Source of the DNA: an uncultured virus (IMG/VR IMGVR_UViG_3300008108_000029)
Lineage: Duplodnaviria; Heunggongvirae; Uroviricota; Caudoviricetes
IMG/VR virus record: IMGVR_UViG_3300008108_000029
DNA length: 64,000 bases
Reading direction: 5' to 3' (one strand)
This document shows, in pieces, positions 4,668-34,043 of this stretch. The translations under genes were made by a program, and so were the position numbers. The notes below the pieces were generated by a model. It had not been told where the DNA came from and made no database searches. It saw only the letters and a list, made by a program, of their open reading frames with translations. Numbering within the stretch: the first letter of the stretch is position 1; the number at the start of each line of letters is the position of its first letter.

Positions 4668-4886
4668 ATGGCAACAATAAATTTAAACAAACACATTTGG
4701 GAGGGTTGGACAGTTGGGTGCTTTATCAACGAACTTGAACCAACATTTAATCAAATAATGAATGGTAACTCTTGGCAAAAACCATTCAAAAATAAAGATG
4801 AATTAAAAAAATGGTGTATGGAAAATCAACCTTTTTACAAAAAACATATACCCGATGTAGTTAATTATTTCAATAACAAAATATGA
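4668..4886 (+). CDS. Hypothetical protein
   Basis: 72-aa ORF. Confidence 0.65.
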   Translation: MATINLNKHIWEGWTVGCFINELEPTFNQIMNGNSWQKPFKNKDELKKWCMENQPFYKKHIPDVVNYFNNKI

Positions 4887-7496: not shown

Positions 7497-7571
7497 AATA
7501 ATTAGATTATTTTATAAAATAAATCTAATATCTCTAAAAATAAAAATGTTAATAACTTTATCAAGATGAGT

Positions 7572-7602: not shown

Positions 7603-7637
7603 TAACGCTACATTAATCAAAAATAACGGTCAAAAAA

Positions 7638-15167: not shown

Positions 15168-15389
15168 ATGGAGAACAAAAAAACACGATTAAAAAAAATA
15201 CTGATGTATAAAGGCATCACTCAAAAAGAGTTGTCGGAAATGACAGGTATAGGGGTAGATAAAATCAGTAACCTGTGTTCAGGTAAACAAACAAATCTTC
15301 ATCTGACAAGTGCTAAAAAAATAGCATACTCATTAGGACTTACTCTTGATGATGTTTTTGGAGGGGACGAACCAATTAAAGAAAATTAA
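15168..15389 (+). CDS. XRE-family HTH regulator
   Basis: ITQKELSEMTGI...AKKIAYSLGLTLDDVF. Confidence 0.9.
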   Translation: MENKKTRLKKILMYKGITQKELSEMTGIGVDKISNLCSGKQTNLHLTSAKKIAYSLGLTLDDVFGGDEPIKEN

Positions 15390-15390
15390 T

Positions 15391-15834
15391 ATGGAAAATA
15401 ATAACGGAAGTAATTTTTTGGAATTAACAAATCACGAAAAAAATGTGCTATTGCCTTTAGTAGTGCAAATACTTCAACACAGGGACACTAAACAGAAAGT
15501 TTTTAGTAATTTAAAAATTAGAAACGTATTGAGAGAGTTTGGTGAAGAAATAAAAGATAGTCAAATTAGAAAATTAGTTTTTCATATAAGAAACAAAAAT
15601 TTAATTGAATTATTAATAGCAAACAGCAATGGATACTTTGTTGCATCTAACATAGATGACGTAAGGGCTTGGATTGATACCCATAAGGGAAAGATTATGG
15701 CAATGGAAAAAACATTGAATAGCATAGAAAAACAATTTGAAAAAAATATGTATCTTCTTAAAGAGGGAAATAGTGATTTAATTGGGCAATTATCTATTTT
15801 TGATTTTAGCGAAGGTGGAGAAATAAATAACTAA
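15391..15834 (+). CDS. Winged-helix-like protein
   Basis: IRKLVFHIR...IANSNGYFVA; ATG 15391 preferred over 15346; ends FSEGGEINN. Confidence 0.6.
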   Translation: MENNNGSNFLELTNHEKNVLLPLVVQILQHRDTKQKVFSNLKIRNVLREFGEEIKDSQIRKLVFHIRNKNLIELLIANSNGYFVASNIDDVRAWIDTHKGKIMAMEKTLNSIEKQFEKNMYLLKEGNSDLIGQLSIFDFSEGGEINN

Positions 15835-19649: not shown

Positions 19650-20930
19650 ATGGCTAAAAATATCAAAAACAAAGGTGGAATGTTTATGGGAAAACTCCAT
19701 AGCGAAGGAGGAATACCCAAAGAAGTCGTTGAATCAGGTCAGCAGATTGAAGTTGAAGGTGATGAACCATTGATTGCTGCTGAAGCAATGGATGATAAAG
19801 ATGTTAAAAAAAGATATGGAACTAACGTAGAAATACTTGATAAAATAAATAAAGAGGTTGGTGCAAAAGGAATGAAAGAAAAAGCAACCGAAGTTCACGT
19901 TGGCGATGCAATAGTTTGTAGGCGTTCTGCTTACGATAAAACAAAAAGAACTTATATTGGAACTGATAAACAAATAGTTAGTGCAATTAATCAAAGTGGA
20001 GGGTGTCGTGTAATAGAAAAAGGTGGAAAAGCAATAGAACCTGATGGCAGCGTAACTCAATATCAAAAGGGTGGAGGTCTGCAAGGTCGTTGGGACAAAA
20101 AGAAACAACATATTGAAGAACTTGCTAACAACCTCCAAAGATTAAAATTAAATCTTACCAAATCTCTTAAATCAGAAAACGAAAAGGAATTTTTAACTGC
20201 GCTTGTTATTTCTATAATGATGAAAACAGGGGAAAGAGTTGGAAATGAAGATTCTGCAAGTAATGGTCATCACGGAGTAACGGGATTTAAAAAGAAACAT
20301 ATTAAAGTTGATGGTAGCACAGTTCATCTTGAGTATATTGGTAAATCAGGAGTTGAACACGAAAAATCTTTTACGGATAAAATTTTATCAGCACACATTA
20401 AAAAGGCAATTAAAGATTCGCCAAGTAATTTTATTTTTACCACGTCAGACGGTTTTAGGATAAAAGCAGATAGAGTTAATAGGTATTTAGATGATTTTAA
20501 CGTAACCGCAAAAGACATTCGTGGATTTTCGGCTAATAAGTGGATTACAGAAAAACTACAAAAAGTTGAAATTCCTGAAACTGAAAATGAAAGAAAAAGA
20601 TTGTTTAATAAGATAGCAAAAAATGTATCTAAAAAAATAGGACACGGACTGCCAACTTTAAAAAAGCATTATATGATGCCTGAATTGCGAGAAAAATATA
20701 TTTACGATTCAGAAATTATTGATGTTAAAGAAGCGAGTGTGTTTGCTTCAGGTGGAGAATTAGGAAATGATACGATTGAAAAAAGATTGATGAGAAAGAT
20801 TGTTGATAATCAGATTCGTATAAAAGATTTAGAAGAAATTTTAGGCAGAGAACCTAACTACCCGAATGATTATGTAGGAAACATAAAGTTGCAGAAATCT
20901 TTTTTAAGACCTTATTATAAATTAGCGTAA
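19650..20930 (+). CDS. Polyvalent protein A: N-terminal H.EGG domain, topoisomerase IB catalytic domain, C-terminal module
   Basis: TGERVGN, GKSGV, KDIRGF.AN, IGH...KKHY (R-K-R-H-Y); TAATTTTG at 19638-19645. Confidence 0.8.
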   Translation: MAKNIKNKGGMFMGKLHSEGGIPKEVVESGQQIEVEGDEPLIAAEAMDDKDVKKRYGTNVEILDKINKEVGAKGMKEKATEVHVGDAIVCRRSAYDKTKRTYIGTDKQIVSAINQSGGCRVIEKGGKAIEPDGSVTQYQKGGGLQGRWDKKKQHIEELANNLQRLKLNLTKSLKSENEKEFLTALVISIMMKTGERVGNEDSASNGHHGVTGFKKKHIKVDGSTVHLEYIGKSGVEHEKSFTDKILSAHIKKAIKDSPSNFIFTTSDGFRIKADRVNRYLDDFNVTAKDIRGFSANKWITEKLQKVEIPETENERKRLFNKIAKNVSKKIGHGLPTLKKHYMMPELREKYIYDSEIIDVKEASVFASGGELGNDTIEKRLMRKIVDNQIRIKDLEEILGREPNYPNDYVGNIKLQKSFLRPYYKLA

Positions 20931-23900
20931 TGAAATTATTAGCACCCAACGGAAAGCCGAGCAACTTAACTCCTGAACAATACGCACTTGTTCGCACTCC
21001 TGCTTTTAAAAAATGGTTCGGGGATTGGGAAAGTGCCTATGAAACAGGAAATTATGATAATGTTTCAAAGGTTATTGATGAAGTAACGAAAGAGCCATTA
21101 GTTGTTTATCATGGCACAAAAAATAGATTTGATGTTTTTGATATAAATAAAGGGGGAGAATCTAATACTACGGCTAAAGTTGGATTTTGGTTTTCACCAA
21201 AAAAATCATTTGCTGAAAATTTTGCGGAAGAAGCGTATTGGGGTAAAAATGATTCTTTTGTTTATGAAGTTTTCCTTGCAATAAAAAATCCGAAAATATA
21301 CATTTCTGATAGTTCAACTTGGGGAGATTCATACGAAAAATTAAAAACCGATATATATAAGGTTGCAGGTCAAACAGAATTTGATGCAAACATAGGTGGT
21401 ATAGGAATGGTATTAAAAAATGAAAAAGAAACTATAAATAAATTTAGAAACCAAATAAATGAAAATGGGTATGATGGTATTATAGTTGAAAAAACAAGGT
21501 TTGACCGAAGAATAGCAGGTGGAATTAACGACCAATATATTGCCTTTGAACCTACTCAAATAAAGTTAGCTGATGGTACAAATGTTACTTTTGATGCCAA
21601 CAATCCTGATATTCGGTTTGATGAAGGTGGCGAAGTTCTATTAGCACCCAACGGAAAGCCAAGTAATCTAACTCCCGAACAATACAAACTTGTTCGTACT
21701 CCTGCATTTAAAAAATGGTTTGGAGATTGGGAGAATGACCCCGAAAACGCAAGTAAGGTTGTAGATGAAAATGGTGAGCCATTGGTGGTATGGCATACCT
21801 CCCCTAATAATTTTAATGTTTTTGATGCAAATAAATCAGTAAAAGGTCTTTTTCATTTTGGAACAATACAACAAGCCACCGACCGATTAACATACTTTAT
21901 TGAAAATATTGGTTTTGATATAACCCCATATATCAAATTAACTGATGAACAAGAAGAAGAAATGTTTGAAATCAATATTTATTGGAAATTGGTTAATTAT
22001 ATTTTGTTATTGAATTTTTACGATAAAAATTATGTTGATATTTATTTTGAAGATATTTTTAATTCAAATCAGAAAGAATTTATAGAAAGCATTAAAATAA
22101 ATATAGATAAAAATAAAATAAAATCCGAATTGGAGAAATACAACATAAAACCATATTTCTTAAAAATAAAAAAACTTGGTAAAACGGATGATGTTGGAGA
22201 AAATTGGGAATTAAATAATGTTTTTTTTGATGGGTATATTTACTTGAACACTTACGAAGGGAACAAAAAACAAAACTCTTTTATTGCCTTCAAACCCACC
22301 CAAATCAAACTCGCAGACAGAACAAACACTACCTTTGATTCTAACAATCCTGATATAAGATACGAAGATGGGGGTGGAATTTACGACCAATATACATCAA
22401 AGCAAATTAAAAAAGTATATGTATCAATAAGGATAAAATACGAATACGAAAAAGTAAGTAATAAATTAGAGGATTATGGTAAATATCAAATAAAATCTTA
22501 TGATGAAAAAACATTTCAAGAATTAAAAGACCACAAGTTAAAAGGAATTATAGGTGTTTCTACATCCAAATATAATTTGTCCGAATGGCTTGTTCACCGT
22601 GAGTGTCTTGTTGTTATGCCTTTTGATAAGTTTTTAGAATTGAATGATACAGAGCAAGTTCAATATTATGACGCTGATTATCTAACTAAAAACGGGCTTG
22701 ATGTTTTGCACCGACTTTATGATAGAAAAAGCAGAACAGATGAGGACTATTATTCTGTTTTACAAAATATATTCCCTAAAATATATCAAGAATTTTATTT
22801 AGAGGGAATGGTAAAAAGGGGAACTGAATATACTAATATGTATGTTATATCTGACATTTTTAACATATACAATTCAAGTAAATTTTTGAGTTATATTTCA
22901 AAACAAGAAAGGATTAGTTCTCCGAATGATTTAGCAAAAATGATTATTGATTACGTTAATTCGGGGCAAATTAAAATTGATTACCCTTATAATAGAAGTG
23001 CAGAAAACTTAACATTAGAAAGCATAATTGAACCAATAAAAAATGGAATAGTAAATTCAGGAAAGATATATGTAGATGAAAGCGAATGGTTAATTAAAAA
23101 CAAAGAACTTATCATACCTGAAAACTCACAACTTTTTTTCGTTTTAAAAGATTACGAAAATTCTCGTCAGAGTTATGAGCAAATTATTACAAAATACGAT
23201 TTGCAAAATAGTTACAAAATAGGTTTTATAAACCAAAATGAACTTAATGAATTACAAACAAGTAGAATTGCTATTAAACGTGATTTGTGGAAAGAGCAAT
23301 ATGAAAATTCAAGAAACGAAACTGAAAAAAGAATTTTAAAAACTTTAAAAAGCATACAAAATCAAATAATTGAAAATTGGACTGAACGATTAATTCAGGA
23401 TTTCAAAGAATCTAATTTTGATGAAATATATAAGGACTACGATGGAAATAGTTATAGTGATAACATTCTTGAAGTCCCAAGTGCAATAATTTACTTTGAC
23501 AGTTTGATGTTAAAGTTTATTGATATTTATAACTCAAGAATTGATTATATATTAAAAACTAAAAACAAGTATTCTTTCGCAGATATTTTTAATGATTTTG
23601 TGTATTATATTGATGATTTGATAAACAAAGAAGGTGATGAAGAATTAGAAGTAAAAACTCAATGGCATCATATTTATAAGCAAGGTATTTTACAAAAATT
23701 AAGATATTATTCAAGGAATGTGGACATTGATGAATTAGGACAAATGGTTAAATCTCAAGTTGGTTCTAATTTATACAGATACTTTTCAAAAGATGAAGTT
23801 CGTTTTAAAAAAGGAGGAAAAGTGAGATTATCAAAAACACCTGCACCTAAAAAGGAAAGAATTTATGGCTCAAAAGTAAATAAACCAAAATCTTCTGAAA

Positions 23901-25843
23901 GTAAAAATAAGGCAAGTTCTATTCTTTTAAGTCCAAAAGTTATCAGTTCTATAAATACTATTTTAGAAAAACACAATTCTAAATCAAAAAAGAAAATCCC
24001 ATTGGCAACTGCAAAAGCAGTAGTTCGTAGGGGAATGGGTGCTTATTCTTCAACTCATAGACCAACAATTAGTGGTGGTAAACCTAATAGTCGTGTCGCT
24101 TGGGGATTAGCGAGATTAAATGCCTTTGTTTACAAAATACAAAAAGGATATTCTAAATCAGGTAGATACACTCAAGATGATGATTTGATTAATGAGTTAG
24201 GTTATAAAGTAAAAAAATACGACATAGGTGGTATTTTTCAGGGAACGCCACACGATTTTAATGTGTATTCTACTGAATATGCAGGAACAGGCGAAGGAAA
24301 TCAATCTTTCGGTTGGGGCTTATATTTTACTGACCAAAAGACAATAGCAGAAAGATATGCCTATATTCCAAGTGAAAATACATTTTACATAGATGGCGTA
24401 TCGCTGAAGGATTCAATACAATTCACACAAGAGCAAAAAAACATAATCCTTAATATATGGAGAGATTTATGGCAAATGGGTTATGCTAAAACATCAGATG
24501 ATTACTTGTTTGAAATTATTAATGAAATAGAGCAGAAATCAATTTTATTAGATATTAACGATGAATCGGTATTTGATAAAGAAACTATTTTAGAAATAAA
24601 TCAGGATTCTAAAATATATTACGACTTGTATGAAAAATTAAAAAAATCGCAAATAGAAATAAAATCAAATATAGTTGGTATAACATTATTTAAAGGCAAG
24701 AATCCTTATGAATACAATATTATTGAGTGGGAAAATCCAATAGGAGAATATAATGCAAAAATAATTTATAATATTCTTACGAGTGATTTAAAAAGGATGT
24801 GGGGTTTAAGAGAATCCCCAAATGCTTATGGTCAAGGTTATGGTGATTATCGTGATTTAATGGATTATAATGGGAGGTATTTGTATCAAGCATTATCAAA
24901 TTTATTAGGTGATGATAAAAAAGCAAGTATGTTTTTACTTCGTGCAGGTATTGATGGAATAAAATATAAGTCAGGAAAATTATCAGGTTTTACAGATAAA
25001 GAAGGATACAACTATGTTATATTTAATGCTGATGACGTTACTATTGAGCAAAAAGAAAAATATGAATCAGGCGGAAATATTGAATTTGAATACAAACTAA
25101 ATGAGGTGTATCCAAACATTTTCTTATTGGAAATGTATGACCAATATGATTTAGCAAGTTGCTTTGTAAGGTGTCAAGCATTTTATGAATGGGATAATTT
25201 TAGGGGTAAAGATTTCAAAATTCAGGACTTCCATAATTCATACGCAAAAACTTATCCACAATTAAAACCATACCAAGAGGAATTTTATGGGTTTAATTTA
25301 CCATCAGACGTTATAAGAAATTGTTATCAAGTAAATAAAGAGAGAAACAATTACGATAATTTCTTTTTAGAAGTCATATCAAAAATTAAAAAAGACAATT
25401 ATTATCTAATTGGAGTAGTTGAAGGCGATAATACAACTCTTAACCACGAACTTGCACACGCTTTCTTTTGGGCAGATAAATCATATAGAGATGATATGAC
25501 TAAACTTGTTAATGAAATTCCGAACAAGAATGAGTTATTGAAAATTTTAAAAGAAGAAAGAGGTTATGGAGAAAACGTATTGATAGATGAAGCACAGGCA
25601 TTTTTATCAACAGGGTTAATTGTAAACATAAGTGATTGGCAAAAATATAAAAAACCTTTTGAGGATAGATTTGAAAGACAAAAGAATCATAATTTTGAAG
25701 AAGGTGGCGAACTAACCATAACCTCCGAACAAGTAGAACAAAAATTAGAAAGAAAACTCCATTGGTGGAATGACGATATTGTTTCAATCAATGGAATTGA
25801 ATATAAAAAGGTATTTTTGAAAAATGAATATAAAAAGGTTTAG
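20930..25843 (+). CDS. Polyvalent protein B (1637 aa): two ART-PolyVal-like domains, unknown domains, a third ART-like domain, zincin peptidase
   Basis: FKKWFGDWE..SKV.DE..EPLVV.H x2; GTGEGNQSFGWGLYF; HELAH...DEAQAF. Confidence 0.8.
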   Translation: MKLLAPNGKPSNLTPEQYALVRTPAFKKWFGDWESAYETGNYDNVSKVIDEVTKEPLVVYHGTKNRFDVFDINKGGESNTTAKVGFWFSPKKSFAENFAEEAYWGKNDSFVYEVFLAIKNPKIYISDSSTWGDSYEKLKTDIYKVAGQTEFDANIGGIGMVLKNEKETINKFRNQINENGYDGIIVEKTRFDRRIAGGINDQYIAFEPTQIKLADGTNVTFDANNPDIRFDEGGEVLLAPNGKPSNLTPEQYKLVRTPAFKKWFGDWENDPENASKVVDENGEPLVVWHTSPNNFNVFDANKSVKGLFHFGTIQQATDRLTYFIENIGFDITPYIKLTDEQEEEMFEINIYWKLVNYILLLNFYDKNYVDIYFEDIFNSNQKEFIESIKINIDKNKIKSELEKYNIKPYFLKIKKLGKTDDVGENWELNNVFFDGYIYLNTYEGNKKQNSFIAFKPTQIKLADRTNTTFDSNNPDIRYEDGGGIYDQYTSKQIKKVYVSIRIKYEYEKVSNKLEDYGKYQIKSYDEKTFQELKDHKLKGIIGVSTSKYNLSEWLVHRECLVVMPFDKFLELNDTEQVQYYDADYLTKNGLDVLHRLYDRKSRTDEDYYSVLQNIFPKIYQEFYLEGMVKRGTEYTNMYVISDIFNIYNSSKFLSYISKQERISSPNDLAKMIIDYVNSGQIKIDYPYNRSAENLTLESIIEPIKNGIVNSGKIYVDESEWLIKNKELIIPENSQLFFVLKDYENSRQSYEQIITKYDLQNSYKIGFINQNELNELQTSRIAIKRDLWKEQYENSRNETEKRILKTLKSIQNQIIENWTERLIQDFKESNFDEIYKDYDGNSYSDNILEVPSAIIYFDSLMLKFIDIYNSRIDYILKTKNKYSFADIFNDFVYYIDDLINKEGDEELEVKTQWHHIYKQGILQKLRYYSRNVDIDELGQMVKSQVGSNLYRYFSKDEVRFKKGGKVRLSKTPAPKKERIYGSKVNKPKSSESKNKASSILLSPKVISSINTILEKHNSKSKKKIPLATAKAVVRRGMGAYSSTHRPTISGGKPNSRVAWGLARLNAFVYKIQKGYSKSGRYTQDDDLINELGYKVKKYDIGGIFQGTPHDFNVYSTEYAGTGEGNQSFGWGLYFTDQKTIAERYAYIPSENTFYIDGVSLKDSIQFTQEQKNIILNIWRDLWQMGYAKTSDDYLFEIINEIEQKSILLDINDESVFDKETILEINQDSKIYYDLYEKLKKSQIEIKSNIVGITLFKGKNPYEYNIIEWENPIGEYNAKIIYNILTSDLKRMWGLRESPNAYGQGYGDYRDLMDYNGRYLYQALSNLLGDDKKASMFLLRAGIDGIKYKSGKLSGFTDKEGYNYVIFNADDVTIEQKEKYESGGNIEFEYKLNEVYPNIFLLEMYDQYDLASCFVRCQAFYEWDNFRGKDFKIQDFHNSYAKTYPQLKPYQEEFYGFNLPSDVIRNCYQVNKERNNYDNFFLEVISKIKKDNYYLIGVVEGDNTTLNHELAHAFFWADKSYRDDMTKLVNEIPNKNELLKILKEERGYGENVLIDEAQAFLSTGLIVNISDWQKYKKPFEDRFERQKNHNFEEGGELTITSEQVEQKLERKLHWWNDDIVSINGIEYKKVFLKNEYKKV

Positions 25844-26025
25844 TTCTTTAATTTGTAAAGAAAGTATTTGTCTTGTTGTTGAATAACTTTGAAAAAATTT
25901 TTTCTATCAAAGTCGTTTAGTTCACTTCTTTTTCTTTTGGCTTCTTCAATAGTGTCAAAAGGAGGGTAGTCAGTAACTATAAACAACCCTTTTACTGTTT
26001 TTATTGCGAATTTTGGCTCAATCAT
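25840..26025 (-). CDS. Small hypothetical protein
   Basis: 61-aa ORF filling the gap between two polyproteins. Confidence 0.5.
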   Translation of the reverse strand: MIEPKFAIKTVKGLFIVTDYPPFDTIEEAKRKRSELNDFDRKNFFKVIQQQDKYFLYKLKN

Positions 26026-26076
26026 AGACCGTAGATTTTCACAAAAATACTATTTATTTTAAATTTGAAAAAAAAT

Positions 26077-27615
26077 ATGAACAAAGGTAAAATGGAAAAT
26101 GGTGGCGAAGTTCTTTTAGCACCCAATGGAAAGCCAAGTAATTTAACGCCCGAACAATACAAGTTAGTTCGCACTCCTGCATTTAAGGCATGGTTTGGGG
26201 ATTGGGAAAATGCCTATGAAACAGGAAATTACGATAATGTTTCAAAGGTTATAGACGAAAAAACCAAAGAACCATTAGTTGTTTATCATGGTTCGCCTTA
26301 CAAATTTAATATTTTTACAACAAAAGAAGAACCACGATTTTTCTTTACCGACAATTTAGCATTGGCTAATCATTTTGCTGATTATTTAGAAGATGATGAA
26401 GGAAATATCATTGATGGAAAAATTTACCAAGTTTTCTTGAACCTAAAAAACCCAAAAATAAATAAAAAGGCAGATTCTAATAGTAACGAAACTATAAATC
26501 AGGCGTATGAAATATATGAAGATTTAGTTGATAAATATGAATATGGCGAAATAGAAGAAAATATTTTATTAGAAAGTTCAGAAGGTGCTATTTTATTTTA
26601 TGAAAATTGGTACTCGGTGGGTGCTACTAATTTAACTAATTATGTTGTGTTTAATTCCAATCAAATAAAACTCGCAGATGGAACGAATACTACTTTTGAT
26701 GCTAATAACCCTGATATAAGATATGCTGATGGAGGAGAATTAAATATGAACAATGAAATAAAAGAAAGATTATTTTGGATTGAATACTTAAACGAACTAA
26801 TTGAAAACGAAAAAAAATACGCAATACAAACATTGTATTTTAGTAAGGCGACAGGCGATGAAATTTATCAGTATATTTCGTTTTTAAGTCCTGATGGAAA
26901 TTATAAAAAACCTTCTGTTATTTCTAAACTAAATAAAACAGCAATAGGCACATTATCACAAGTGAACGATGTTTATAAAAACTTTAGTTTGGATAAACTT
27001 GGGTTCAAGATTATTAAAATTGAAAACGAAAAAATGGAAAAAGGCGGTGGCATAAGCGAACAAAAATACTTCAAGGTTATTAAAAACACTAAACCTATCT
27101 TTGCAGTAAAGATTGCCGAAGGCGAAGAAAACATTTCAGGAATGAGTGAATTAGTTATGGATAGATTAACTGACTACGGATACTTTCTAAATGAAATATC
27201 AAAATCAGATTATGAAAACTTTGATTACAGCAAAATTGATGCTGATGATATTACAGCGTTTTTAGGAATTTTAGATTACTTTAATACTGAAAATTATGAA
27301 GCAAAATTCAATGCTCATAAAATACCAAGCAGAGAAATATTCACTTTGGCTATGGAGGTAAGAAATACATACCCTAAACTATGGTTCAAGAGAGGTAGTG
27401 AGTATGGTAATCAAGCGTTTAAAGATTTGATTAAAGTTATGAAAAGAGGTTATTGGTTAGATACTGAACAAGAACTTTATAAAAAAAGAAAAGAATATAT
27501 TGATGCCCACAAAGAAGATGTTGATTTAGATGATGTAATATCAATGTTAAAATGGATGGGAGAGGTTCGTGGTGGTTATGATTATATGTTAAACGTAATA
27601 CAAAAAAATGCTTAA
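26077..27615 (+). CDS. Polyvalent protein C: ART-PolyVal-like domain plus two unknown domains
   Basis: Same LLAPNGKPSNLT...NNPDIRY cassette; ATG 26077 follows TAAATTTG 26060-26067. Confidence 0.8.
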   Translation: MNKGKMENGGEVLLAPNGKPSNLTPEQYKLVRTPAFKAWFGDWENAYETGNYDNVSKVIDEKTKEPLVVYHGSPYKFNIFTTKEEPRFFFTDNLALANHFADYLEDDEGNIIDGKIYQVFLNLKNPKINKKADSNSNETINQAYEIYEDLVDKYEYGEIEENILLESSEGAILFYENWYSVGATNLTNYVVFNSNQIKLADGTNTTFDANNPDIRYADGGELNMNNEIKERLFWIEYLNELIENEKKYAIQTLYFSKATGDEIYQYISFLSPDGNYKKPSVISKLNKTAIGTLSQVNDVYKNFSLDKLGFKIIKIENEKMEKGGGISEQKYFKVIKNTKPIFAVKIAEGEENISGMSELVMDRLTDYGYFLNEISKSDYENFDYSKIDADDITAFLGILDYFNTENYEAKFNAHKIPSREIFTLAMEVRNTYPKLWFKRGSEYGNQAFKDLIKVMKRGYWLDTEQELYKKRKEYIDAHKEDVDLDDVISMLKWMGEVRGGYDYMLNVIQKNA

Positions 27616-30379
27616 TCTATTAGCACCTAACGGAAAGCCGAGTAATTTAACTCCTGAACAATACAGTTTAGTAAGAACTGCTGAATTTAAGGAATGGTTC
27701 GGAGATTGGGAAAAACTTGCCTACGCAAAAATGAAAGATGCTGCTATGGATGAAGTTACTCTTGCAAACTTATCAAAAAATGTGTCAGACGTTTTAGATT
27801 CAAACGGAGAGCCATTAGTTGTGTATAGAGGTCAAGTTGTAGATGAGCATTTAGGTTATACGTTTCAAAAAGGACTAAACATATTACGAAAGCCATATAA
27901 AAATGAATTTGGTTTTTTCTTTAGTAAAGATAAAGTTTTAGCAGAAGGTTATGCAGATTATCCGAGCAAGGGCAAAATAGGTTATGTTTTAGAAGTGTTT
28001 TTATTTGCTAAAACTCTTGATTTAAGACCTTTGGGATTAAAGTATAAAAGTGGAATAGATTTCGTTGAATATTTGGAAAGTAAAGGTGTAGTTTTTAGTG
28101 ATGAAAACAGAAATAACCTAATAAACATACAAAACCTATATGATATTGGTATGGCTACGGGCTATCAATATGATGTGTGGGATATATTTGACTTGATGCC
28201 TGAAATTAATCAAGATTTAATTAATTCAGGATATACGGCAGTTTTATTCTTTGAAAAAAGACCATCAACATTTGGGGAAGTTGAACAGTATGCTGTTTTC
28301 AATAGTAATCAAATAAAACTTGCCGATGGAACAAACACGACATTTGATAGCAATAACCCTGATATTAGATATGAAATGGGAGGAAAAATAAAAAAAGGTA
28401 AAGGCGATTGCTACTATGTTGCAGGTCAATTCGCTATGGGAGCATTATCCCCAAAAAAAATTAAATACATAGGAACACCTTATATTGTTCACGCAGAAGT
28501 TCAGGGACAAGGCAAAGTATCAGACATAAGATATGGACACGCTTGGGTAGAAGATGATGAACTCATTTATGATTTCTCAAATAATAGAGAGATTGTTTTC
28601 CCAAAACAACTATACTATGCGATTGGAGATATTAAAACTGATAACCCAAAAAAGTATAGAAAATACACTTTTGACGAAGCGAGAAAAAAGATGGTAGAAA
28701 CAAAACACTACGGCTGTTGGGATTTGGAAGTTGATTATGCCGAAGGTGGAGAAATAACAGAGCAGGAAAAACAAGAAAACCTTAATAAGTTTATTGATAG
28801 CAGTTTATTTACTGATAACAGTTTTAGTTATAGGACAGGCAAAGCAGAACTTGAATCCGTGCCTAAAATTTATTTTCACGAAACTTTAAAAAGTAATTTA
28901 AAAGATATAGAAGAAAATGGATTTGATACCAATATTGTAATATCAAGAGGTAATGATAACCTAATGCCTAATGGTATTTTCTTAAAAAATACTGATAAAG
29001 AAATCGGAGTTGGTGGAAGTGGTGATAAGATACAAATTCCTGTTTACGTTAGTGTAAAATGGGAGAAGGTAAATTTTTTTGAAGATAGGGATGAACTTTA
29101 TGAATTTGCAGTAAACAAGAACCCTGATTTTCATAGTGCTTATTGGGCTGTTGAAAACTATGATAAAAAAATGTCAAAGTTTTTTGATGAATTTTTTGAT
29201 TACCGAAATTACTTTAGCAATTACGAAAGAGGAACTGACGCTTACAAAAAAAGATTACAGCAATTCTCTGATGAAACAGAAGAATACTTGAGGGAATGGG
29301 ATATTGAACTTAAAAGATTATCAGCCATATCAAGAGAAATTACTACTGAAATATTTACAAGTTTAGGTATAGAGGCAATAGTAATTAGAAATGATACGGG
29401 AAGTTTCGGTAGAAAAGTTTGGACTTTAGTTGTTTTGAATCCATATAAAATAAAAGCAGTTAATAACATAGGAACTTTTGATGAAACAAAAAAGGGAATT
29501 AAATACGAAGTTGGAGGTAACGTAGTAACCGAAGAAAACAAGAATACTGTCGTTCCAACATTCGTAGATAATGAAAACAAATTACAGGAAAGCAAAAAAA
29601 TAAAAAATCCAATCTCAAAATATACAGATGTTATAAAATCACATCTTAAAATAACAACCTATGCACACGATTGGAAATTTTATGATAAGCCCAATGCTGT
29701 TAATTCATTACTTGATTTTTTCAAAATTCCAATTAGAGTTAAAAAGAATGTAGGGGAAGGTTCTTATGGAGTTGCTTTTTTGACTGATAAAAAAACTGTC
29801 TTAAAAATAACTAACAACGCAAACGAAGCATACTCAAGTTTTGTTATTATGAAAAACAGGGGTAAACTGAAAACACAGGCAGACGTTTACAATGTTTTTA
29901 AAATTACAAACGGAGAAGAATCTTTATATCTTATTGAAAAACAGTTTATACCTGAAATATTCTATGATATTTTGCTAAACATAGATAAAGACATATCTCA
30001 AACGGGAAATATATATCAAAAGTATTTGGATGAGGTTTTCCATCAATGTTTTTATTATAGTGAAAACGAACAATTTTATGAAATGAAAGAATATGATGTT
30101 GAAAAATTGTTTTTAATCAAAAAAGGATTTATAGAAGATGAACTACAAGATGATTCTCCTTACATAAAACTTTTAACAAAAAAAGACGAACAAGTTATTG
30201 ATTATGCAAAAAGTATTAAACAATTTTTCATTGATTTACAGAAAGATGAAAAAACTACTAATATAGATTTTGCAGATATTCATTCAGGCAACGCAGGTTT
30301 TATTGATAAAAAATTTGTTTGTTTTGATTGTGCTATGGGAGATATTTCTTTATTTCAAGATGGTGGAAAGTTGAAATAA
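27608..30379 (+). CDS. Polyvalent protein D: ART-PolyVal-like, transglutaminase/papain-like, ART-like and protein-kinase-like domains
   Basis: GDCY...HAWVE...YD; FHET...ENGF...GIFL; GEGSYG...VLKIT...DIHSGN...FD. Confidence 0.8.
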   Translation: MLNLLAPNGKPSNLTPEQYSLVRTAEFKEWFGDWEKLAYAKMKDAAMDEVTLANLSKNVSDVLDSNGEPLVVYRGQVVDEHLGYTFQKGLNILRKPYKNEFGFFFSKDKVLAEGYADYPSKGKIGYVLEVFLFAKTLDLRPLGLKYKSGIDFVEYLESKGVVFSDENRNNLINIQNLYDIGMATGYQYDVWDIFDLMPEINQDLINSGYTAVLFFEKRPSTFGEVEQYAVFNSNQIKLADGTNTTFDSNNPDIRYEMGGKIKKGKGDCYYVAGQFAMGALSPKKIKYIGTPYIVHAEVQGQGKVSDIRYGHAWVEDDELIYDFSNNREIVFPKQLYYAIGDIKTDNPKKYRKYTFDEARKKMVETKHYGCWDLEVDYAEGGEITEQEKQENLNKFIDSSLFTDNSFSYRTGKAELESVPKIYFHETLKSNLKDIEENGFDTNIVISRGNDNLMPNGIFLKNTDKEIGVGGSGDKIQIPVYVSVKWEKVNFFEDRDELYEFAVNKNPDFHSAYWAVENYDKKMSKFFDEFFDYRNYFSNYERGTDAYKKRLQQFSDETEEYLREWDIELKRLSAISREITTEIFTSLGIEAIVIRNDTGSFGRKVWTLVVLNPYKIKAVNNIGTFDETKKGIKYEVGGNVVTEENKNTVVPTFVDNENKLQESKKIKNPISKYTDVIKSHLKITTYAHDWKFYDKPNAVNSLLDFFKIPIRVKKNVGEGSYGVAFLTDKKTVLKITNNANEAYSSFVIMKNRGKLKTQADVYNVFKITNGEESLYLIEKQFIPEIFYDILLNIDKDISQTGNIYQKYLDEVFHQCFYYSENEQFYEMKEYDVEKLFLIKKGFIEDELQDDSPYIKLLTKKDEQVIDYAKSIKQFFIDLQKDEKTTNIDFADIHSGNAGFIDKKFVCFDCAMGDISLFQDGGKLK

Positions 30380-30420
30380 AAAATTGCCTATGAGTTGTAT
30401 TTATTTTAAATTTGCTAACA

Positions 30421-33408
30421 ATGACAACAAAAAAACTTTGCCCAAGAGGGACTAAAATTCAATCACTAATCTTTTCAAAAGATAAGTTTAATACTAAATC
30501 AGCAAAAAGTTGGGCTGAAAAACATAAATTCAAATTTGGTAAAGTTGATGAAACAACAAATAACTTACGAATTAGACAACATAGCCCTACTAATTTTCTG
30601 AAAACAAGTTTTAGAACTATTGGTATAACAAACGGAATAAAAGCAGTAATTGGCTGTCCTGTTAAAAAAATGGAATCGGGTGGATTTTTGGAACTATTAG
30701 ATTCAAAAGTAATAAACGATAGTTGCGTAGTAGAAACGATAGGTGTTATCAATGACTATTCACCGTTAGAATGGTGGTTTATTGATGACTACAATTATAA
30801 TCTTGTTATATATTTTGAGGAATCTTTTACGGCAAACGATATTGATAATATACAAGATATTTTAAATCAATTTGAATTATGCCACGACATCATTACTCCT
30901 GAAATTAATTTGCAGTATGACAAAGAGGGCAAAATAATATACATTCCCCTACTTACAAATGAATTTACTGTTGGTAAATATGAAGATGGGGGTAAGGTTA
31001 ATTTGTATGCTGACCTTACAAATGACGAGGTGTTGAGAAATTACAATAAGTTAATGTATGAGTATCAGAAAATTTCAAGCCGTGATGAAAATTGGGCAAA
31101 GGATAAAAAAGACATTTATTTAAAATTGATAGCAAACTATAAATTAGCACTTGAAATGAGGGGAGTTATGAGTGATGGTGGAAATATTGAAAGTCAGTAT
31201 TCAATAGAAAACATACTAAATATTAGTGGTGTTCCTGAAAAAGATAGAGAAAAACTAATCAATGATTTCAGAGCATCAGGTTATGGTGATACCTACGAAC
31301 TTATCGGGGATTTCCCTAATGAGTTACCTCTTGAACAAAAAGTTTGGGTTACTGCTACAAACATAGAAGAAAAAGTTAATGACTTCAAAGATGGTGAAAA
31401 TACATTTTTAGAAGCGACACTAATTGCAGAAGCAATACATTCTATTTATGAGAATGAGGAAATAGTATCTGAAGAAACCGAAGAAGAAGAAACTAAAGAA
31501 GAAATTGAACAAGCACCTGAAAAAACAGAAGATGATAATGCAACACAATCACATGAAATTGATGATTCTGAAGTAACGGAGTTAGTAGAAAATGTTTATG
31601 CAGAATTTCTAAAATTAAAAAATGATGAAATTTTCGTGGCTTTTCTAAACGAGTTAAAAAATCAAGAAATATTTGGACAACCATATAAATATCATATAGA
31701 GAAATTTAGGGGAAATGGTGGCGTTCAGATTTATGTATTTAATCCACTAACTCTAAAGTTTACTGATGTTCCTGCTTATAAAATGGCAAACGGAAAATAT
31801 GCTAATAAAAGATTTCTTAATATTCCTGACAAAGAACTTGTTACATTTGAAGAATACGCAGAAGGAAATTGGAAAGATTTTAATGATAATATAATTTTAA
31901 ATAACATAAAATCATTATTAAAACAATTTAAAGAAGATAAAAATTATATTGGCGTTGAAAAAACGGCATCTTATTATCTTTTACCTGAACACAAGCAAGA
32001 ATTTATTGATTTTGCTATTAGTCAAGGATACACCAACATTGCTTATTACGATGGAAAATATTTTGAAGCAGGTGGAGAAGTTCTAATAGGAGGTAAAGCA
32101 GATAATATGTCGCTTGACGATATTGCTGATATGCACGGAGTTCCACTTGAACAGATTTTGAGGCAATCAAGAATAGGTTTAAAAGTAGAAAGAGAGCATA
32201 CAAGCGATATGAATAAGGTTATTGAAATCGTTAAAGACCATTTATACGAAAGTCCTTTATACTATACTAAACTTCAGAAAATTGAAAGTTCTTTTGAAAC
32301 GGGAGGCACAATAGGCGACTTATATCTTGATGTTCCGAGTGAAAATAATGATATGTTCAAACTTTATGCTACATCTGAAATAAGAGGTTTCAGTTTTAAA
32401 AGTGGAATTGAAAACAATGGAAGTTTCAGATACGTTTTCACGAGTGAAAGAGATTTAGATAAGGCAATAGGTATTCTTTTAAGATTACAAAATGGAAGGG
32501 GAAATATGCCGACTAACTTGAATCAGTTAAAGAAAATGTTACAGGTTGGCTCTCTTTTAAAATTGACTTATAACAGAGTTAGACCCGACAGAGTAGGGAA
32601 AATTTTTGTTGTAGCAAAAGTTCAATCTAATGGAATTTGGCTAATTGAAGGTGTTACTGTTCCTAATGATGTTGATTTCAAAAAAGCAATTTGGTTAGAG
32701 TATCCTAAAACAGATGAGATTTTATTCAACGTATTAGGTTTTTCAATTTATGGTAAAAACATATTAAATAAAGGCACTATTAATTGGACATCAGAATATG
32801 TAAAAATGCTTTCTTACGAATATATTTTAGGGGAGCAGATTGATATAGCAAAAGCAACATACACACCTACCGAGCAGATTGATGATACTTATGTAAAAAA
32901 TCAAGCATATTTAAGAACTGTATATGTTAATGAATTAATCAACTTGATTGATGATATTCAAACTTATAAAATGGGTGGTGGCGTAAAACCTGAATATTTT
33001 AATCTCAACAAAAAAATTGACAAAGATAAATTACTGACGGTAAGTTGCTTTATCAAATCAAAAGATACAAACAAGAGTTTATATGTTCGTAGAGCAGAAG
33101 GCGACCATATTGGTTATTGGAGTTTAGTGAGTGGAACAGTTGAAAAAGGCGAGTTTCCTGAAGATGCAATCAAGAGAGAAATTCAAGAGGAATTACAAGT
33201 TAAACTTGATTTTTCAAACTTGATTTATGTCGCACAAACACCTTCTCCATACGGTGTTCATTACTATTACGAACTGACTGTAAATGAGGAATTTGAACCT
33301 AATCTTAACGAAGAAAATGACAAGTTTGCTTGGTTACATTACGGCAAAATGCCTAAACAGACACATCCTCTGTTAATCAAGTTTATGAAATCAAATGTAA
33401 TGGCTTGA
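30421..33408 (+). CDS. Polyvalent protein E: basic N-terminal domain, unknown domains, DUF5661-like domain, Nudix hydrolase
   Basis: GLKVEREHT...IVKDHLYE.P.YY.KL; GTVEKGE.PEDAIKREIQEEL; TAAATTTG 30407-30414. Confidence 0.8.
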   Translation: MTTKKLCPRGTKIQSLIFSKDKFNTKSAKSWAEKHKFKFGKVDETTNNLRIRQHSPTNFLKTSFRTIGITNGIKAVIGCPVKKMESGGFLELLDSKVINDSCVVETIGVINDYSPLEWWFIDDYNYNLVIYFEESFTANDIDNIQDILNQFELCHDIITPEINLQYDKEGKIIYIPLLTNEFTVGKYEDGGKVNLYADLTNDEVLRNYNKLMYEYQKISSRDENWAKDKKDIYLKLIANYKLALEMRGVMSDGGNIESQYSIENILNISGVPEKDREKLINDFRASGYGDTYELIGDFPNELPLEQKVWVTATNIEEKVNDFKDGENTFLEATLIAEAIHSIYENEEIVSEETEEEETKEEIEQAPEKTEDDNATQSHEIDDSEVTELVENVYAEFLKLKNDEIFVAFLNELKNQEIFGQPYKYHIEKFRGNGGVQIYVFNPLTLKFTDVPAYKMANGKYANKRFLNIPDKELVTFEEYAEGNWKDFNDNIILNNIKSLLKQFKEDKNYIGVEKTASYYLLPEHKQEFIDFAISQGYTNIAYYDGKYFEAGGEVLIGGKADNMSLDDIADMHGVPLEQILRQSRIGLKVEREHTSDMNKVIEIVKDHLYESPLYYTKLQKIESSFETGGTIGDLYLDVPSENNDMFKLYATSEIRGFSFKSGIENNGSFRYVFTSERDLDKAIGILLRLQNGRGNMPTNLNQLKKMLQVGSLLKLTYNRVRPDRVGKIFVVAKVQSNGIWLIEGVTVPNDVDFKKAIWLEYPKTDEILFNVLGFSIYGKNILNKGTINWTSEYVKMLSYEYILGEQIDIAKATYTPTEQIDDTYVKNQAYLRTVYVNELINLIDDIQTYKMGGGVKPEYFNLNKKIDKDKLLTVSCFIKSKDTNKSLYVRRAEGDHIGYWSLVSGTVEKGEFPEDAIKREIQEELQVKLDFSNLIYVAQTPSPYGVHYYYELTVNEEFEPNLNEENDKFAWLHYGKMPKQTHPLLIKFMKSNVMA

Positions 33409-33519: not shown

Positions 33520-34029
33520 ATGTATTTTAATAATCCTCAAATCTTACAAGGCGATACCGATATAATAATTGGTGCTGTTAATTGTGGAGATAGAAAAGAA
33601 ATTACTTTCCTGAATTATATGAATCTTGTTTCTCAAAATCTTGAATATCATATTGAGGTTTATATTGAGAATTTAAAAGGTAAAGATGTGTCCCGTGAAA
33701 GAGCATTGAAATTAACTGCCGATAGAATTTTTAATACATTAGAAGGATACTATGTTAAATATCCAACGAATGAGCAAGAACTTACCGAATATCTTATGGA
33801 AACAAGATATTTTGAAATGTGGGCATCAGACATATTGATAAGATTTAAAAATACTCATAAAGGAAAAGTTACGATGGAAACTAAAATCCCATCAGTTGTA
33901 GATAATGGTATTGAAGAATCAGAAATCAAAGAGGTTTTATCAGAAGTTGATTTTCTAACAATACTGCAAAAATTATCTATGTATGCAGATATTGGAAACC
34001 CAACAGTTGATTGGATTACAAACGGCTAA
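33520..34029 (+). CDS. Hypothetical protein
   Basis: 169 aa; TATATTTG box at 33487-33494. Confidence 0.7.
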   Translation: MYFNNPQILQGDTDIIIGAVNCGDRKEITFLNYMNLVSQNLEYHIEVYIENLKGKDVSRERALKLTADRIFNTLEGYYVKYPTNEQELTEYLMETRYFEMWASDILIRFKNTHKGKVTMETKIPSVVDNGIEESEIKEVLSEVDFLTILQKLSMYADIGNPTVDWITNG

Positions 34030-34043
34030 TAAATATTTTTAAA

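What the first reader, a model, noticed from the sequence alone, without database searches (positions are those of the whole stretch)
19650..33408. Di-glycine-punctuated effector polyproteins: 21 [YFM]xxGG motifs at domain boundaries and termini of five consecutive genes
Seen (position of the first codon): A YQKGG 20061, FASGG 20742; B FDEGG 21617, YEDGG 22361, FKKGG 23804, YDIGG 24218, YESGG 25061, FEEGG 25694; C MENGG 26092, YADGG 26722, MEKGG 27034; D YEMGG 28370, YAEGG 28736, YEVGG 29504, FQDGG 30353; E MESGG 30670, YEDGG 30979, MSDGG 31168, FEAGG 32062, FETGG 32293, YKMGG 32965. Consensus is (K/R)-[YFM]-(E/A/D)-x-G-G-(E/K/G/N)-(V/I/L). Codons vary, so conservation is at the protein level. 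Recognisable domains (topo IB, ARTs, zincin, Cys-protease-like, kinase, DUF5661, Nudix) are each bounded by a motif or a protein terminus. I found no such motif in the adjacent ~1690-aa helicase. Established: adenain, ASFV pS273R and Ulp/SENP proteases cut after Gly-Gly. Inference: these are maturation sites that release a cocktail of separate enzymes, probably virion-packaged host-takeover effectors, each ending in a ubiquitin-like GG. Alternatively the motif is a repeated capsid-docking or cargo-loading tag; the near-terminal copies (FQDGGKLK*, and FSEGGEINN* at 15805) fit that reading.
Basis: partly seen in the sequence, partly recalled or inferred. Interest (0 to 1): 0.93.

Follow-up and report, generated by a model that had tools for sequence, protein, structure and literature searches.

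The report
Diglycine junction peptides in phage polyvalent proteins
Five neighbouring phage genes encode chains of unrelated enzyme modules, and almost every joint between modules carries the same short peptide ending in two glycines, which gives exact sites for testing whether such giant phage proteins are cut into separate enzymes.

Summary
All 21 [YFM]xxGG motifs sit at the stated coordinates; shuffles give 2.3±1.5. The rest of the window is at background.

The five genes are "polyvalent proteins" in the sense of Iyer et al. 2017 (ART-PolyVal, topo IB, DUF5661, Nudix), followed by a Strawberry-notch helicase.

The motif, [KR]-[YFM]-x-x-G-G-x-[VIL], is a standard junction peptide of one uncultivated low-GC phage lineage:
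- 120 homologues carry 474 copies against 54 expected.
- ART-PolyVal proteins of other lineages lack it.

Evidence that it marks module borders:
- Local homology ends at it.
- Orthologues differ by whole modules inserted between copies.
- Stand-alone genes start where GG lies in fused forms.
- It also separates hydrophobic N-terminal leaders and short C-terminal tails from the enzyme modules.

Cleavage is the best-supported reading (about 0.4) but is not shown. I found no Ulp/adenain-like protease and no protease shared across the lineage. Two candidate peptidase modules inside proteins B and D are leads only. A loading or translocation tag, or a hinge, remain live rivals.

This is a new variant of a known kind.

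The parts
19650..20930 (+). Gene A, 426 aa. Modules: N-terminal 'A-module' (1-142), topoisomerase IB (143-369), 57-aa tail. Motifs at aa 138 and 365.
   Evidence: ORF. Pfam Topoisom_I E=2.8e-21. The A-module has relatives in 12 loci and in all 3 complete relatives.
20930..25843 (+). Gene B, 1637 aa. Modules: two ART-PolyVal modules (1-234, 235-482), a 481-aa unknown, a 138-aa module, a weak third ART-like module (1102-1382), an HELAH module (1383-1593) and a 44-aa conserved tail. 6 motifs.
   Evidence: Pfam ART-PolyVal E=1.6e-32, 3 stretches. Segments. Weak ART E=0.0031. HELAH at aa 1506. Atlas lead to ATLF/Peptidase_Mx1 at 0.81-0.82.
26065..27615 (+). Gene C, 516 aa (start uncertain: 26065, 26077 or 26092). 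Modules: ART-PolyVal, a 104-aa module and a 188-aa module. 3 motifs.
   Evidence: Pfam. AF2: residues about 15-218 are confident; pLDDT is below 50 for 1-13 and from 219 on. P0001 starts at MENGG.
27608..30379 (+). Gene D, 923 aa. Modules: ART-PolyVal, a Cys/His/Asp module (260-381), a 256-aa module and a 283-aa module. It ends FQDGGKLK*. 4 motifs.
   Evidence: Pfam. Invariant C9, H36, H52, D57/58 in alignment A6. Atlas 0.93 to a viral cluster auto-named McjB C-terminal domain.
30412..33408 (+). Gene E, 998 aa. Seven modules including DUF5661 (556-632) and NUDIX (857-998). 6 motifs.
   Evidence: Pfam DUF5661 E=4.4e-14 and NUDIX E=1.4e-13. Orthologues P0122-P0126 keep the first and last modules and differ by whole inserted modules.
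20061..20075 (+). Motif YQKGG (A 138)
20742..20756 (+). Motif FASGG (A 365)
21617..21631 (+). Motif FDEGG (B 230), preceded by NNPDIR; ends ART module 1
22361..22375 (+). Motif YEDGG (B 478), preceded by NNPDIR; ends ART module 2
23804..23818 (+). Motif FKKGG (B 959)
24218..24232 (+). Motif YDIGG (B 1097)
25061..25075 (+). Motif YESGG (B 1378)
25694..25708 (+). Motif FEEGG (B 1589), before the 44-aa tail
26092..26106 (+). Motif MENGG (C 10); its Met may be the real start codon
26722..26736 (+). Motif YADGG (C 220), preceded by NNPDIR; lies at the pLDDT drop in the AF2 model
27034..27048 (+). Motif MEKGG (C 324)
28370..28384 (+). Motif YEMGG (D 255), preceded by NNPDIR
28736..28750 (+). Motif YAEGG (D 377), directly after the Cys/His/Asp module
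29504..29518 (+). Motif YEVGG (D 633)
30353..30367 (+). Motif FQDGG (D 916), 3 residues before the stop
30670..30684 (+). Motif MESGG (E 87)
30979..30993 (+). Motif YEDGG (E 190)
31168..31182 (+). Motif MSDGG (E 253)
32062..32076 (+). Motif FEAGG (E 551), before DUF5661
32293..32307 (+). Motif FETGG (E 628), after DUF5661
32965..32979 (+). Motif YKMGG (E 852), before NUDIX
15346..15834 (+). Single-module 162-aa protein ending FSEGGEINN* (motif at 15805-15819)
   Evidence: phrog_2113
34011..39101 (+). Strawberry-notch-type helicase, 1696 aa, without the motif. A typical companion of polyvalent proteins.
   Evidence: Pfam Helicase_C_4 and AAA_34. No motif. In relative L007 the helicase does carry one N-terminal junction motif.
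39117..40547 (+). AAA_5 (MoxR/CobS-like) ATPase, conserved next to the polyvalent genes in relatives
   Evidence: Pfam AAA_5 E=2.3e-14. Homologues in 8 motif-rich loci and in G001 and G003.
4668..4883 (+). 72-aa stand-alone copy of a module that in relative G003 sits between two motifs inside a 2368-aa protein. The stand-alone copy has no motif.
   Evidence: 73% identity over 67 aa, E=6e-36

Best explanation
The five genes encode phage polyvalent proteins: beads-on-a-string chains of unrelated effector modules. The modules include ADP-ribosyltransferases, topoisomerase IB, Nudix, DUF5661, two possible peptidases and many unknowns. In this uncultivated low-GC phage lineage every module carries a standard peptide added to its C-terminal side, [KR]-[YFM]-x-x-G-G, followed by x-[VIL] at the start of the next module.

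I read this peptide as a site recognised in trans. Most likely it is the cleavage site of a maturation protease. That protease would free the modules from each other and from hydrophobic N-terminal leaders or short C-terminal address tails, either after the chain has been loaded into the virion or after delivery into the host.

Shown: the motif, its enrichment, its restriction to one lineage, and its one-per-junction placement. Inferred: recognition in trans, cleavage, and virion delivery.
For: **The motif is real and general in the family**
- 21 against 2.3±1.5 in shuffles.
- 474 against 54 expected in 120 homologues; 118 of 120 have at least 2.
- 59% of 947 GG sites in 94 motif-rich proteins have Y/F/M at -3. 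There is also information at -4 (K/R), -2 (A/E) and +2 after GG (V/I/L).
- Codons vary, so selection acts on the peptide.

**It marks junctions**
- 45.0% of 84,585 internal BLAST alignment ends lie within 5 aa of a motif, against 5.9% for random positions. This count is dominated by the ART module.
- Orthologues of E keep the end modules and differ by whole modules between motifs.
- Stand-alone ART genes start 3-6 residues before APNG, where fused copies have GG 2-6 residues before it.
- The AF2 model of C is confident over about 15-218 and below 50 for 1-13 and from 219 on.

**It is an add-on, not part of the folds**
- ART modules of other lineages end in DIR[YF] but lack xxGG.
- The stand-alone copy of a G003 module lacks the motif.

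**The architecture resembles propeptide or address signal plus site**
- 20 of 130 homologues start with a roughly 15-residue hydrophobic segment followed by the motif.
- 4 of 130 end with the motif followed by a hydrophobic anchor.
- 22 of 175 motif-rich proteins have 15-19-aa tails after the last GG. 20 of 175 stop 0-5 aa after GG, against about 4% expected.

**Polyprotein scale.** Relatives have proteins of 2368 aa with 26 motifs, 1731 aa with 19 and 2267 aa with 20.

**Hints of virion association**
- The only universal module (A 1-142) also lies near the C-terminal end (about residues 1105-1160 of 1227) of the annotated tape measure protein of Elizabethkingia phage TCUEAP1, E=1e-5.
- Its weak fold matches are all baseplate hub, VgrG or secretin-N0 type (Z 4.9-3).
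- The giants lie beside GDSL lipase, SLT, CHAP and M15 lysin genes in G003.

**Candidate peptidase modules** exist inside B and D.

**Literature.** Iyer et al. 2017 predict autoproteolytic processing of polyvalent proteins (passages read).
Against: - No cleavage product was or could be observed.
- No protease is shared by the lineage. The B HELAH module and the D Cys module have no BLAST relatives in G001 or G005; the D module occurs in G003 only. Motif-rich proteins of the three complete relatives have no HExxH.
- No clan CE, C39 or prohead protease family was found by Pfam or PHROGs in the window or in G003.
- None of the 34 conserved core proteins under 1,000 aa of G001, G003 and G005, other than the polyvalent ART protein itself, has a conserved motif.
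- Motif copies 0-5 aa from a C-terminus serve no purpose for release.
- Known polyvalent-type proteins such as N4 vRNAP, ArdC and TraC1 are transferred uncut (Iyer et al., passage).
- If the C-terminal tails are host-targeting peptides, cutting them off would defeat their purpose.
Confidence: 0.4

Rival explanations
1. Loading or translocation tag. The peptide is bound, not cut, by a phage factor that keeps the chain extended or feeds it into the capsid, tail or host. The conserved neighbouring AAA_5 ATPase and its partner are one possible factor. Many copies would give avidity.
For: - The motif is specific and peptide-level conserved.
- Complete copies that include the x-[VIL] positions are kept at C-termini, in 20 of 175 proteins.
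- Tandem double copies such as YEDGGYMAEGG occur in relatives.
- An AAA_5 ATPase gene is conserved next to the polyvalent genes in the window, in 8 motif-rich loci and in G001 and G003.
Against: - One copy per junction, rather than per polypeptide, is not what a packaging address needs.
- Most motif-rich proteins (155 of 175) do not end in a copy.
- The stand-alone module has none.
- No binding partner was identified.
Confidence: 0.25
2. Passive hinge. GG is a flexible joint, and the flanking aromatic and beta-branched residues merely cap neighbouring domains. This would let a very long chain of small folds unfold and refold module by module without any trans factor. Terminal copies would be relics of gene splitting at junctions.
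For: - Strictly one motif per junction.
- The [VIL] two residues after GG is retained as Ile in the stand-alone module, so it belongs to the module.
- The aromatic of ART junctions is the general DIR[YF] end of that domain in all lineages.
- pLDDT drops at the motif.
Against: - Passive linkers normally drift. Here unrelated folds share K/R at -4, Y/F/M at -3 and A/E at -2.
- The peptide is an add-on that is absent from the stand-alone copy and from other lineages.
- Copies occur beside leaders and tails where there is no second domain to hinge.
Confidence: 0.25
3. Recombination junction. The motif marks DNA-level microhomology used to shuffle module cassettes, with no role for the peptide.
For: Modules are clearly shuffled and inserted exactly between motifs.
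Against: - Codons of all conserved positions vary. Mean pairwise nucleotide identity of the 36-nt windows is 48%, so no usable DNA homology is conserved.
- Selection is on the amino acids.
Confidence: 0.04

Closest known systems
Polyvalent proteins of phages and conjugative elements (Iyer, Burroughs, Anand, de Souza, Aravind 2017, PMC5512222; passages read)
   Same: - Chains of 2-15 unrelated conflict or effector domains.
- ART-PolyVal, Nudix, GNAT, RadC and zincin-type modules.
- A Sno/SF2 helicase companion.
- Predicted delivery with the DNA and predicted proteolytic processing.
   Different: - The paper's main text contains none of the words glycine, diglycine, Gly-Gly, linker or boundary. 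No junction motif is described there; its FTP supplements were not seen.
- Here one lineage has a standard junction peptide.
- The zincin hub is absent from most members.
T4 internal proteins with a capsid-targeting sequence, and phiKZ inner-body proteins cut by the prohead protease (recalled, not read here)
   Same: - Virion-packed effector proteins.
- An address peptide removed at a short consensus site.
- Many cuts per protein in phiKZ.
   Different: - Those sites end in Glu (LxE, S/A/G-x-E) and also occur in the head proteins.
- Here the site would end in GG.
- No head protein with the site and no prohead protease were identified.
Adenovirus adenain, ASFV pS273R and Ulp/SENP-type cleavage after Gly-Gly; polyubiquitin precursors with a short cap after the last GG (recalled)
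   Same: - GG at the putative P2-P1 positions with a hydrophobic residue upstream.
- Repeated units.
- 1-5-residue caps after a terminal GG.
   Different: - The hydrophobic residue is at P5, not P4.
- No clan CE or DUB-like protease was found.
- The modules are unrelated folds, not ubiquitin-like repeats.
MARTX toxins (multi-effector toxins cut between effector domains by an internal cysteine protease domain; recalled)
   Same: - One chain carries many unrelated effector modules released by cuts in the inter-module linkers.
- A protease module rides in the same chain. B 1383-1593 and D 260-381 are possible counterparts.
   Different: - MARTX is a bacterial secreted toxin of eukaryotic cells, with cuts after Leu and little consensus.
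- Here the system is phage against bacterium, the consensus is strong and the protease is unproven.
Double-glycine leader peptides cut by C39 peptidase domains; lasso-peptide leader peptidase McjB (recalled; the McjB name comes from an automatic Atlas cluster label)
   Same: - An N-terminal leader ending in GG in 20 of 130 homologues.
- D 260-381 has an invariant Cys, His and Asp arrangement like small clan CA peptidases.
   Different: - The leaders here are hydrophobic and not of the LSxxELxxIxGG type.
- No C39 or Transglut_core3 Pfam match, even at E<=1.
- The D module is present in only a minority of relatives.

Membership tests
Polyvalent proteins (Iyer et al. 2017) | Several unrelated effector or enzyme domains in one polypeptide | tested here: met
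   Pfam finds topo IB, ART-PolyVal in three of the proteins (B, C, D), DUF5661 and NUDIX. There are 24 segments of at least 40 aa between motifs.
Polyvalent proteins (Iyer et al. 2017) | Hallmark families (ART-PolyVal PF18760, LPD domains, Sno/SF2 helicase companion) | tested here: met
   PF18760 E=1.6e-32, 5.7e-16 and 4.1e-10. Helicase_C_4/AAA_34 in the next large gene. LPD23 in 42236-44356.
Polyvalent proteins (Iyer et al. 2017) | Encoded by a phage or conjugative element | tested here: met
   Relatives lie on IMG/VR viral contigs of 40-102 kb. PHROG hits in the window. However, no capsid, portal or terminase family was recognised in the window or in G003.
Polyvalent proteins (Iyer et al. 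2017) | Zincin-like MPTase module for autoprocessing (common, not obligatory) | tested here: inconclusive
   One HELAH at B 1506. Atlas nearest named clusters are ATLF, Peptidase_Mx1 and M90 at 0.81-0.82, below the 0.9 lead level. No Pfam or PDB sequence match.
Polyvalent proteins (Iyer et al. 2017) | Packaged in the virion and delivered with the DNA | not testable with these tools
   Indirect only: the A-module lies near the C-terminal end of an annotated tape measure protein, there are weak hub-like fold matches, and lysin genes sit beside the giant relatives.
Viral polyproteins cut after Gly-Gly by clan CE proteases (adenain, pS273R, Ulp1) | A clan CE protease gene in the genome | tested here: inconclusive
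   None found by Pfam, PHROGs or NCBIfam in the window or in G003. The window's whole genome is not held and these phages are very divergent.
Viral polyproteins cut after Gly-Gly by clan CE proteases (adenain, pS273R, Ulp1) | Cleavage after GG demonstrated | not testable with these tools
   Needs proteomics or expression assays.
Prohead-protease-processed internal head proteins (T4 IPs, phiKZ inner body) | The same site in major head or scaffold proteins, and a prohead protease gene | tested here: inconclusive
   No conserved motif in the conserved core proteins of G001, G003 and G005 other than the polyvalent ART protein (34 core proteins under 1,000 aa listed). No protease family hit. The capsid protein itself could not be identified.
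Double-glycine leader / C39 peptidase systems | A C39 peptidase domain and an LSxxELxxIxGG-type leader | tested here: not met
   No C39 match even at E<=1. The leaders are hydrophobic, e.g. the first 30 residues of P0022, and are absent from the window's five proteins.

The most novel reading that the evidence does not exclude
A lineage of uncultivated phages, probably of Bacteroidota/Ignavibacteria-type hosts, uses true polyprotein processing at a dedicated diglycine site. Chains of up to 26 small, unrelated, early-protein-like modules would be anchored by hydrophobic leaders, tails or a tail-hub-like module. They would be delivered with the DNA and then cut at [KR][YFM]xxGG by a protease not yet recognised. 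That protease could be a new fold or a hijacked host enzyme. The result would be a ready-made cocktail of anti-host effectors.
Probability: 0.3. Interest if true: 0.85.

Novelty: new variant of a known kind. Interest (0 to 1): 0.62.

Why it matters
Polyvalent proteins are widespread in phages and conjugative elements. Whether and where they are cut has been an open prediction since 2017.

A strongly conserved one-per-junction peptide gives exact, mutable sites to test this: GG-to-AA mutants, N- and C-terminomics, and a search for junction-spanning peptides.

It also gives a simple sequence rule for cutting thousands of uncharacterised giant phage proteins into their modules. Many of these modules are likely anti-defence or host-takeover proteins with no known family. 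If cleavage is real, the matching protease would be a new diglycine-specific enzyme.

Tried and rejected
- **Near-identical or related isolate phages.** Megablast of the region and tblastn of three window proteins against 50,697 phage records gave little. There were only distant ART hits and one tape-measure hit obtained with a relative's A-module.
- **Whole genome.** Not held. A 40-nt word from the window's right end found nothing in viral contigs. In metagenome contigs it found two contigs (one only 2.2 kb), and the longer one (99.98% identical over the overlap) extends the window by about 9.9 kb. The extension has no motif-rich ORF.
- **Fold of the A-module.** The AF2 model has pLDDT 67. 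Foldseek against PDB found nothing at E<=0.001. The profile against PDB sequences found nothing significant. VIA-wide gave only Z<5.
- **Sequence searches of the HELAH, 'kinase' and Cys modules** against PDB, Pfam at E<=1, PHROGs and NCBIfam gave nothing significant.
- **Complex prediction** of the D Cys module with a 46-aa junction segment of C returned no verdict (score 0.00). This is not evidence either way.
- **Candidate capsid and packaging proteins of G003** against PDB sequences: no hits. The idea that these are membrane-containing, non-tailed viruses (HerA-like ATPase, many small membrane proteins) could not be tested.
- **RadC-JAB as the GG protease.** Rejected as a general answer. 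It is one module in two orthologues only, and Iyer et al. argue it lacks the ubiquitin-tail groove.
- **Literature.** Searches with the terms 'bacteriophage, polyprotein, Gly-Gly, virion, prohead protease' and 'ART-PolyVal' found no description of this motif.
- **Earlier notes of this scan.** Nothing for this genome or sequence.

Full report
**1. Observation.**
- In 5,000 residue shuffles of the same proteins the count is 2.32±1.53, with a maximum of 9.
- The other 54 ORFs of at least 100 aa in the window have 6 in 14,132 aa, which is background. Only FSEGGEINN* at the end of 15346-15834 looks like the consensus.
- The neighbouring 1,696-aa helicase has none.
- Codons at the conserved positions vary, so conservation is at the peptide level.
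- One caveat: MENGG at 26092 may contain the real start codon, because the 99%-identical database protein P0001 starts there.

**2. What the genes are.**
- Pfam finds topoisomerase IB in A. It finds ART-PolyVal (PF18760, 'ADP-ribosyltransferase in polyvalent proteins') in B, C and D, and DUF5661 plus NUDIX in E.
- The next large gene is a Strawberry-notch-type helicase. A further gene (42236-44356) has an LPD23 domain.
- These are therefore 'polyvalent proteins' as defined by Iyer et al. 2017 (PMC5512222). I read passages of that paper.
- The paper predicts that such proteins travel with the DNA and are processed by built-in zincin-like peptidases. Its main text contains none of the words glycine, diglycine, Gly-Gly, linker or boundary. 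I did not see its FTP supplements.
- Most of the 24 inter-motif segments have no family match.
- The 'Cys-protease-like' module (D 260-381) has invariant Cys, His, His and Asp residues. It has an Atlas lead (0.93) to viral clusters, one auto-named after the lasso-peptide leader peptidase McjB.
- 'Kinase' was not confirmed.

**3. A family-wide, lineage-specific feature.**
- A search with protein C found 1,025 relatives at E<=0.001 among 7,998 scored candidates. The 120 listed hold 474 motifs against 54 expected, and 118 of 120 have at least two.
- Over 947 GG sites in 94 motif-rich proteins, the residue at -3 is Y 28%, F 21% and M 10%. There are further preferences for K/R at -4, A/E at -2, D/K/E at -1 and V/I/L two residues after GG.
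- The motif is not a property of ART-PolyVal proteins in general. A crAss-like 2,519-aa protein has none, and a Bacteroides phage 3,634-aa protein has four non-consensus hits.
- Of 78 viral-contig loci with an ART-PolyVal relative, only 16 are motif-rich (6-32 motifs against 1.1-4.2 expected). All 16 have 27-36% GC. I judged this split by eye from the table; L019, L042 and L054 are marginal.
- In the motif-poor lineages the ART module still ends in ...N-x-D-I-R-[YF], but what follows is not xxGG.
- Three complete relatives (102, 77 and 70 kb by CheckV) each have several motif-rich proteins. These include giants of 2,368 aa with 26 motifs, 1,731 aa with 19 and 2,267 aa with 20.
- The same lineage appears in MAGs labelled Ignavibacteria, Sediminibacterium and Phycisphaerales. 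I take this only as a hint to the host range.

**4. The motif marks module junctions.**
- Of 84,585 internal ends of BLAST alignments among 125 proteins, 45.0% lie within 5 residues of a motif, against 5.9% for random positions. This count is dominated by the ART module, through which the set was gathered.
- Orthologues of E (P0122-P0126) share its first module and its Nudix end. They differ by whole modules, among them GNAT, RadC-JAB and DUF4314, each bracketed by motifs.
- Stand-alone ART genes start 3-6 residues before the APNG core. Fused copies have GG 2-6 residues before it.
- The window ORF 4668-4883 (72 aa) is 73% identical to a module that in relative G003 lies between FANGG and YADGG inside the 2,368-aa protein. 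The stand-alone copy starts where the GG would be and stops before the downstream motif.
- So the [KR][YFM]xxGG peptide is an add-on to the C-terminal side of a module, not part of its fold. The hydrophobic residue after GG does belong to the next module.
- The AlphaFold2 model of C (50-row alignment) is confident over about residues 15-218. It falls below pLDDT 50 for 1-13 and from 219 on, which is at both flanking motifs. The rest of C is too poorly modelled to judge the third motif.

**5. Leaders, tails and caps.**
- 20 of 130 homologues begin with a roughly 15-residue Gly/Ala-rich hydrophobic segment and an acidic stretch, followed by the motif and then an ART or Nudix module.
- 4 of 130 end with the motif followed by a hydrophobic anchor.
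- Among 175 proteins with at least 2 motifs, 22 have a 15-19-residue tail after the last GG. Recurrent types end in ...PDYLKMFLGK...QIWGWFGIKF and ...NWNYSIGGL. Recurrent ...DLPF endings also occur but on longer tails.
- 20 of the 175 stop 0-5 residues after GG, against about 4% expected. The window's D (FQDGGKLK*) is of this kind.
- In several relatives each of three small effector proteins in a row carries the same tail after its last motif. This looks like a per-polypeptide address signal.

**6. Hints that the proteins are virion-borne.**
- The only module shared by the window and all three complete relatives, besides ART, is A 1-142. Of 42 further viral loci found through this module, 31 pass a strict motif-richness test, and most of the others are still enriched.
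- A relative's copy matches the region near the C-terminal end (about residues 1105-1160 of 1227) of the annotated tape measure protein of Elizabethkingia phage TCUEAP1 (E=1e-5). There it is again followed by FARGGEI.
- Its AF2 model (pLDDT 67) has no Foldseek match. The weak VIA matches (Z 4.9-3.0, below the tool's own noise guide) are almost all baseplate-hub, VgrG or tail-lysin proteins and secretin N0 domains.
- In G003 the two giants lie directly upstream of GDSL-lipase, SLT, CHAP and M15 genes.
- An AAA_5 ATPase is conserved next to the polyvalent genes.
- None of this proves packaging.

**7. Search for a protease.**
- No clan CE, C39 or prohead-protease family was detected in the window or in G003.
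- The two possible peptidase modules of the window are not general. The HELAH module has no relatives in my sets. The Cys module occurs in G003 and in a few loci and proteins only.
- Motif-rich proteins of the three complete relatives have no HExxH.
- The 34 conserved core proteins under 1,000 aa of the three relatives include no protein other than the polyvalent ART protein with a conserved motif. The capsid protein could not be identified.

**8. Reading.**
- Peptide-level conservation of five positions across unrelated folds, in an add-on peptide, argues for recognition in trans by a protease or a binder.
- One copy per junction, the polyprotein scale, and leaders and tails set off by the motif fit a maturation cleavage site best (0.4).
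- Complete copies at C-termini, tandem copies and the conserved AAA_5 neighbour keep a non-cleaved loading or translocation tag alive (0.25).
- A passive hinge (0.25) explains placement but not sequence specificity.
- A DNA recombination signal is disfavoured by the codon variation.

**9. Context from this scan.** Earlier AI notes describe other polyvalent proteins whose modules are set off by different, lineage-specific short peptides (Phe-Met-Pro, Glu-ending, Asn-Pro). I did not test them. They suggest that junction peptides may be a general, lineage-variable feature, which would fit co-evolving proteases.

**10. Verdict.** The genes belong to a known class. The standard diglycine junction peptide appears not to be described: it is absent from the main text of Iyer et al. 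and was not turned up by two full-text searches. Its function remains untested.

Noticed in passing
window 12263-13303 (+): A 346-aa protein combines HTH_17, sigma-70 region 4 and an RNA polymerase alpha-subunit C-terminal domain (Pfam E=4e-6, 4e-7 and 4e-11). This is an unusual fusion for a phage transcription factor.
   Followed up: no
window 52388-63615: A run of roughly 200-aa genes includes FkbM-type and class I methyltransferases. On the minus strand there are a family-2 glycosyltransferase, a sulfotransferase and an APS-kinase-like gene. This may be a glycan or sulfation modification cluster.
   Followed up: no
L142, about 10 kb beyond the right end of the window: The extension (99.98% identical over the overlap) encodes a series of proteins with C-terminal hydrophobic anchors and no motif-rich protein. 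Together with a HerA/DUF87-like ATPase (window 50562-51428) and the lack of recognisable portal, capsid or terminase genes in relatives, the virion type of this lineage is unclear.
   Followed up: partly
P0016, P0072, P0076; L003 ORFs 2564-4048 and 7352-7636: Several proteins of relatives end in ...DLPF or ...LPF. This resembles the acidic-hydrophobic C-terminal tip of bacterial SSB (the resemblance is recalled, not tested). They could be host-factor-binding tails.
   Followed up: no
L016:11188-14334 (= G005 44090-47236) and P0129: A DNA polymerase III beta-clamp central domain (PF02767, E=4e-9 and 5e-12) sits as one module inside motif-rich polyvalent proteins.
   Followed up: no
G001 77766-90831 (L084-L085): Four large proteins carry a different repeat, [YS]SF[IV]GGG..N, probably beta-helical fibre repeats. 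It inflates raw [YFM]xxGG counts and must be excluded from motif statistics.
   Followed up: partly
P0047, P0094, P0097, P0117, P0118 (DUF5661 modules): DUF5661 modules of several relatives contain an HE[FL]EH motif. No HExxH was found in the window's protein E. Whether DUF5661 binds metal is unknown.
   Followed up: no
window 4668-4883 (+): A small gene in the small-gene part of the window is 73% identical to an internal module of a 2,368-aa protein of a relative. So the same module circulates as a free gene and as a bead in a giant chain.
   Followed up: yes
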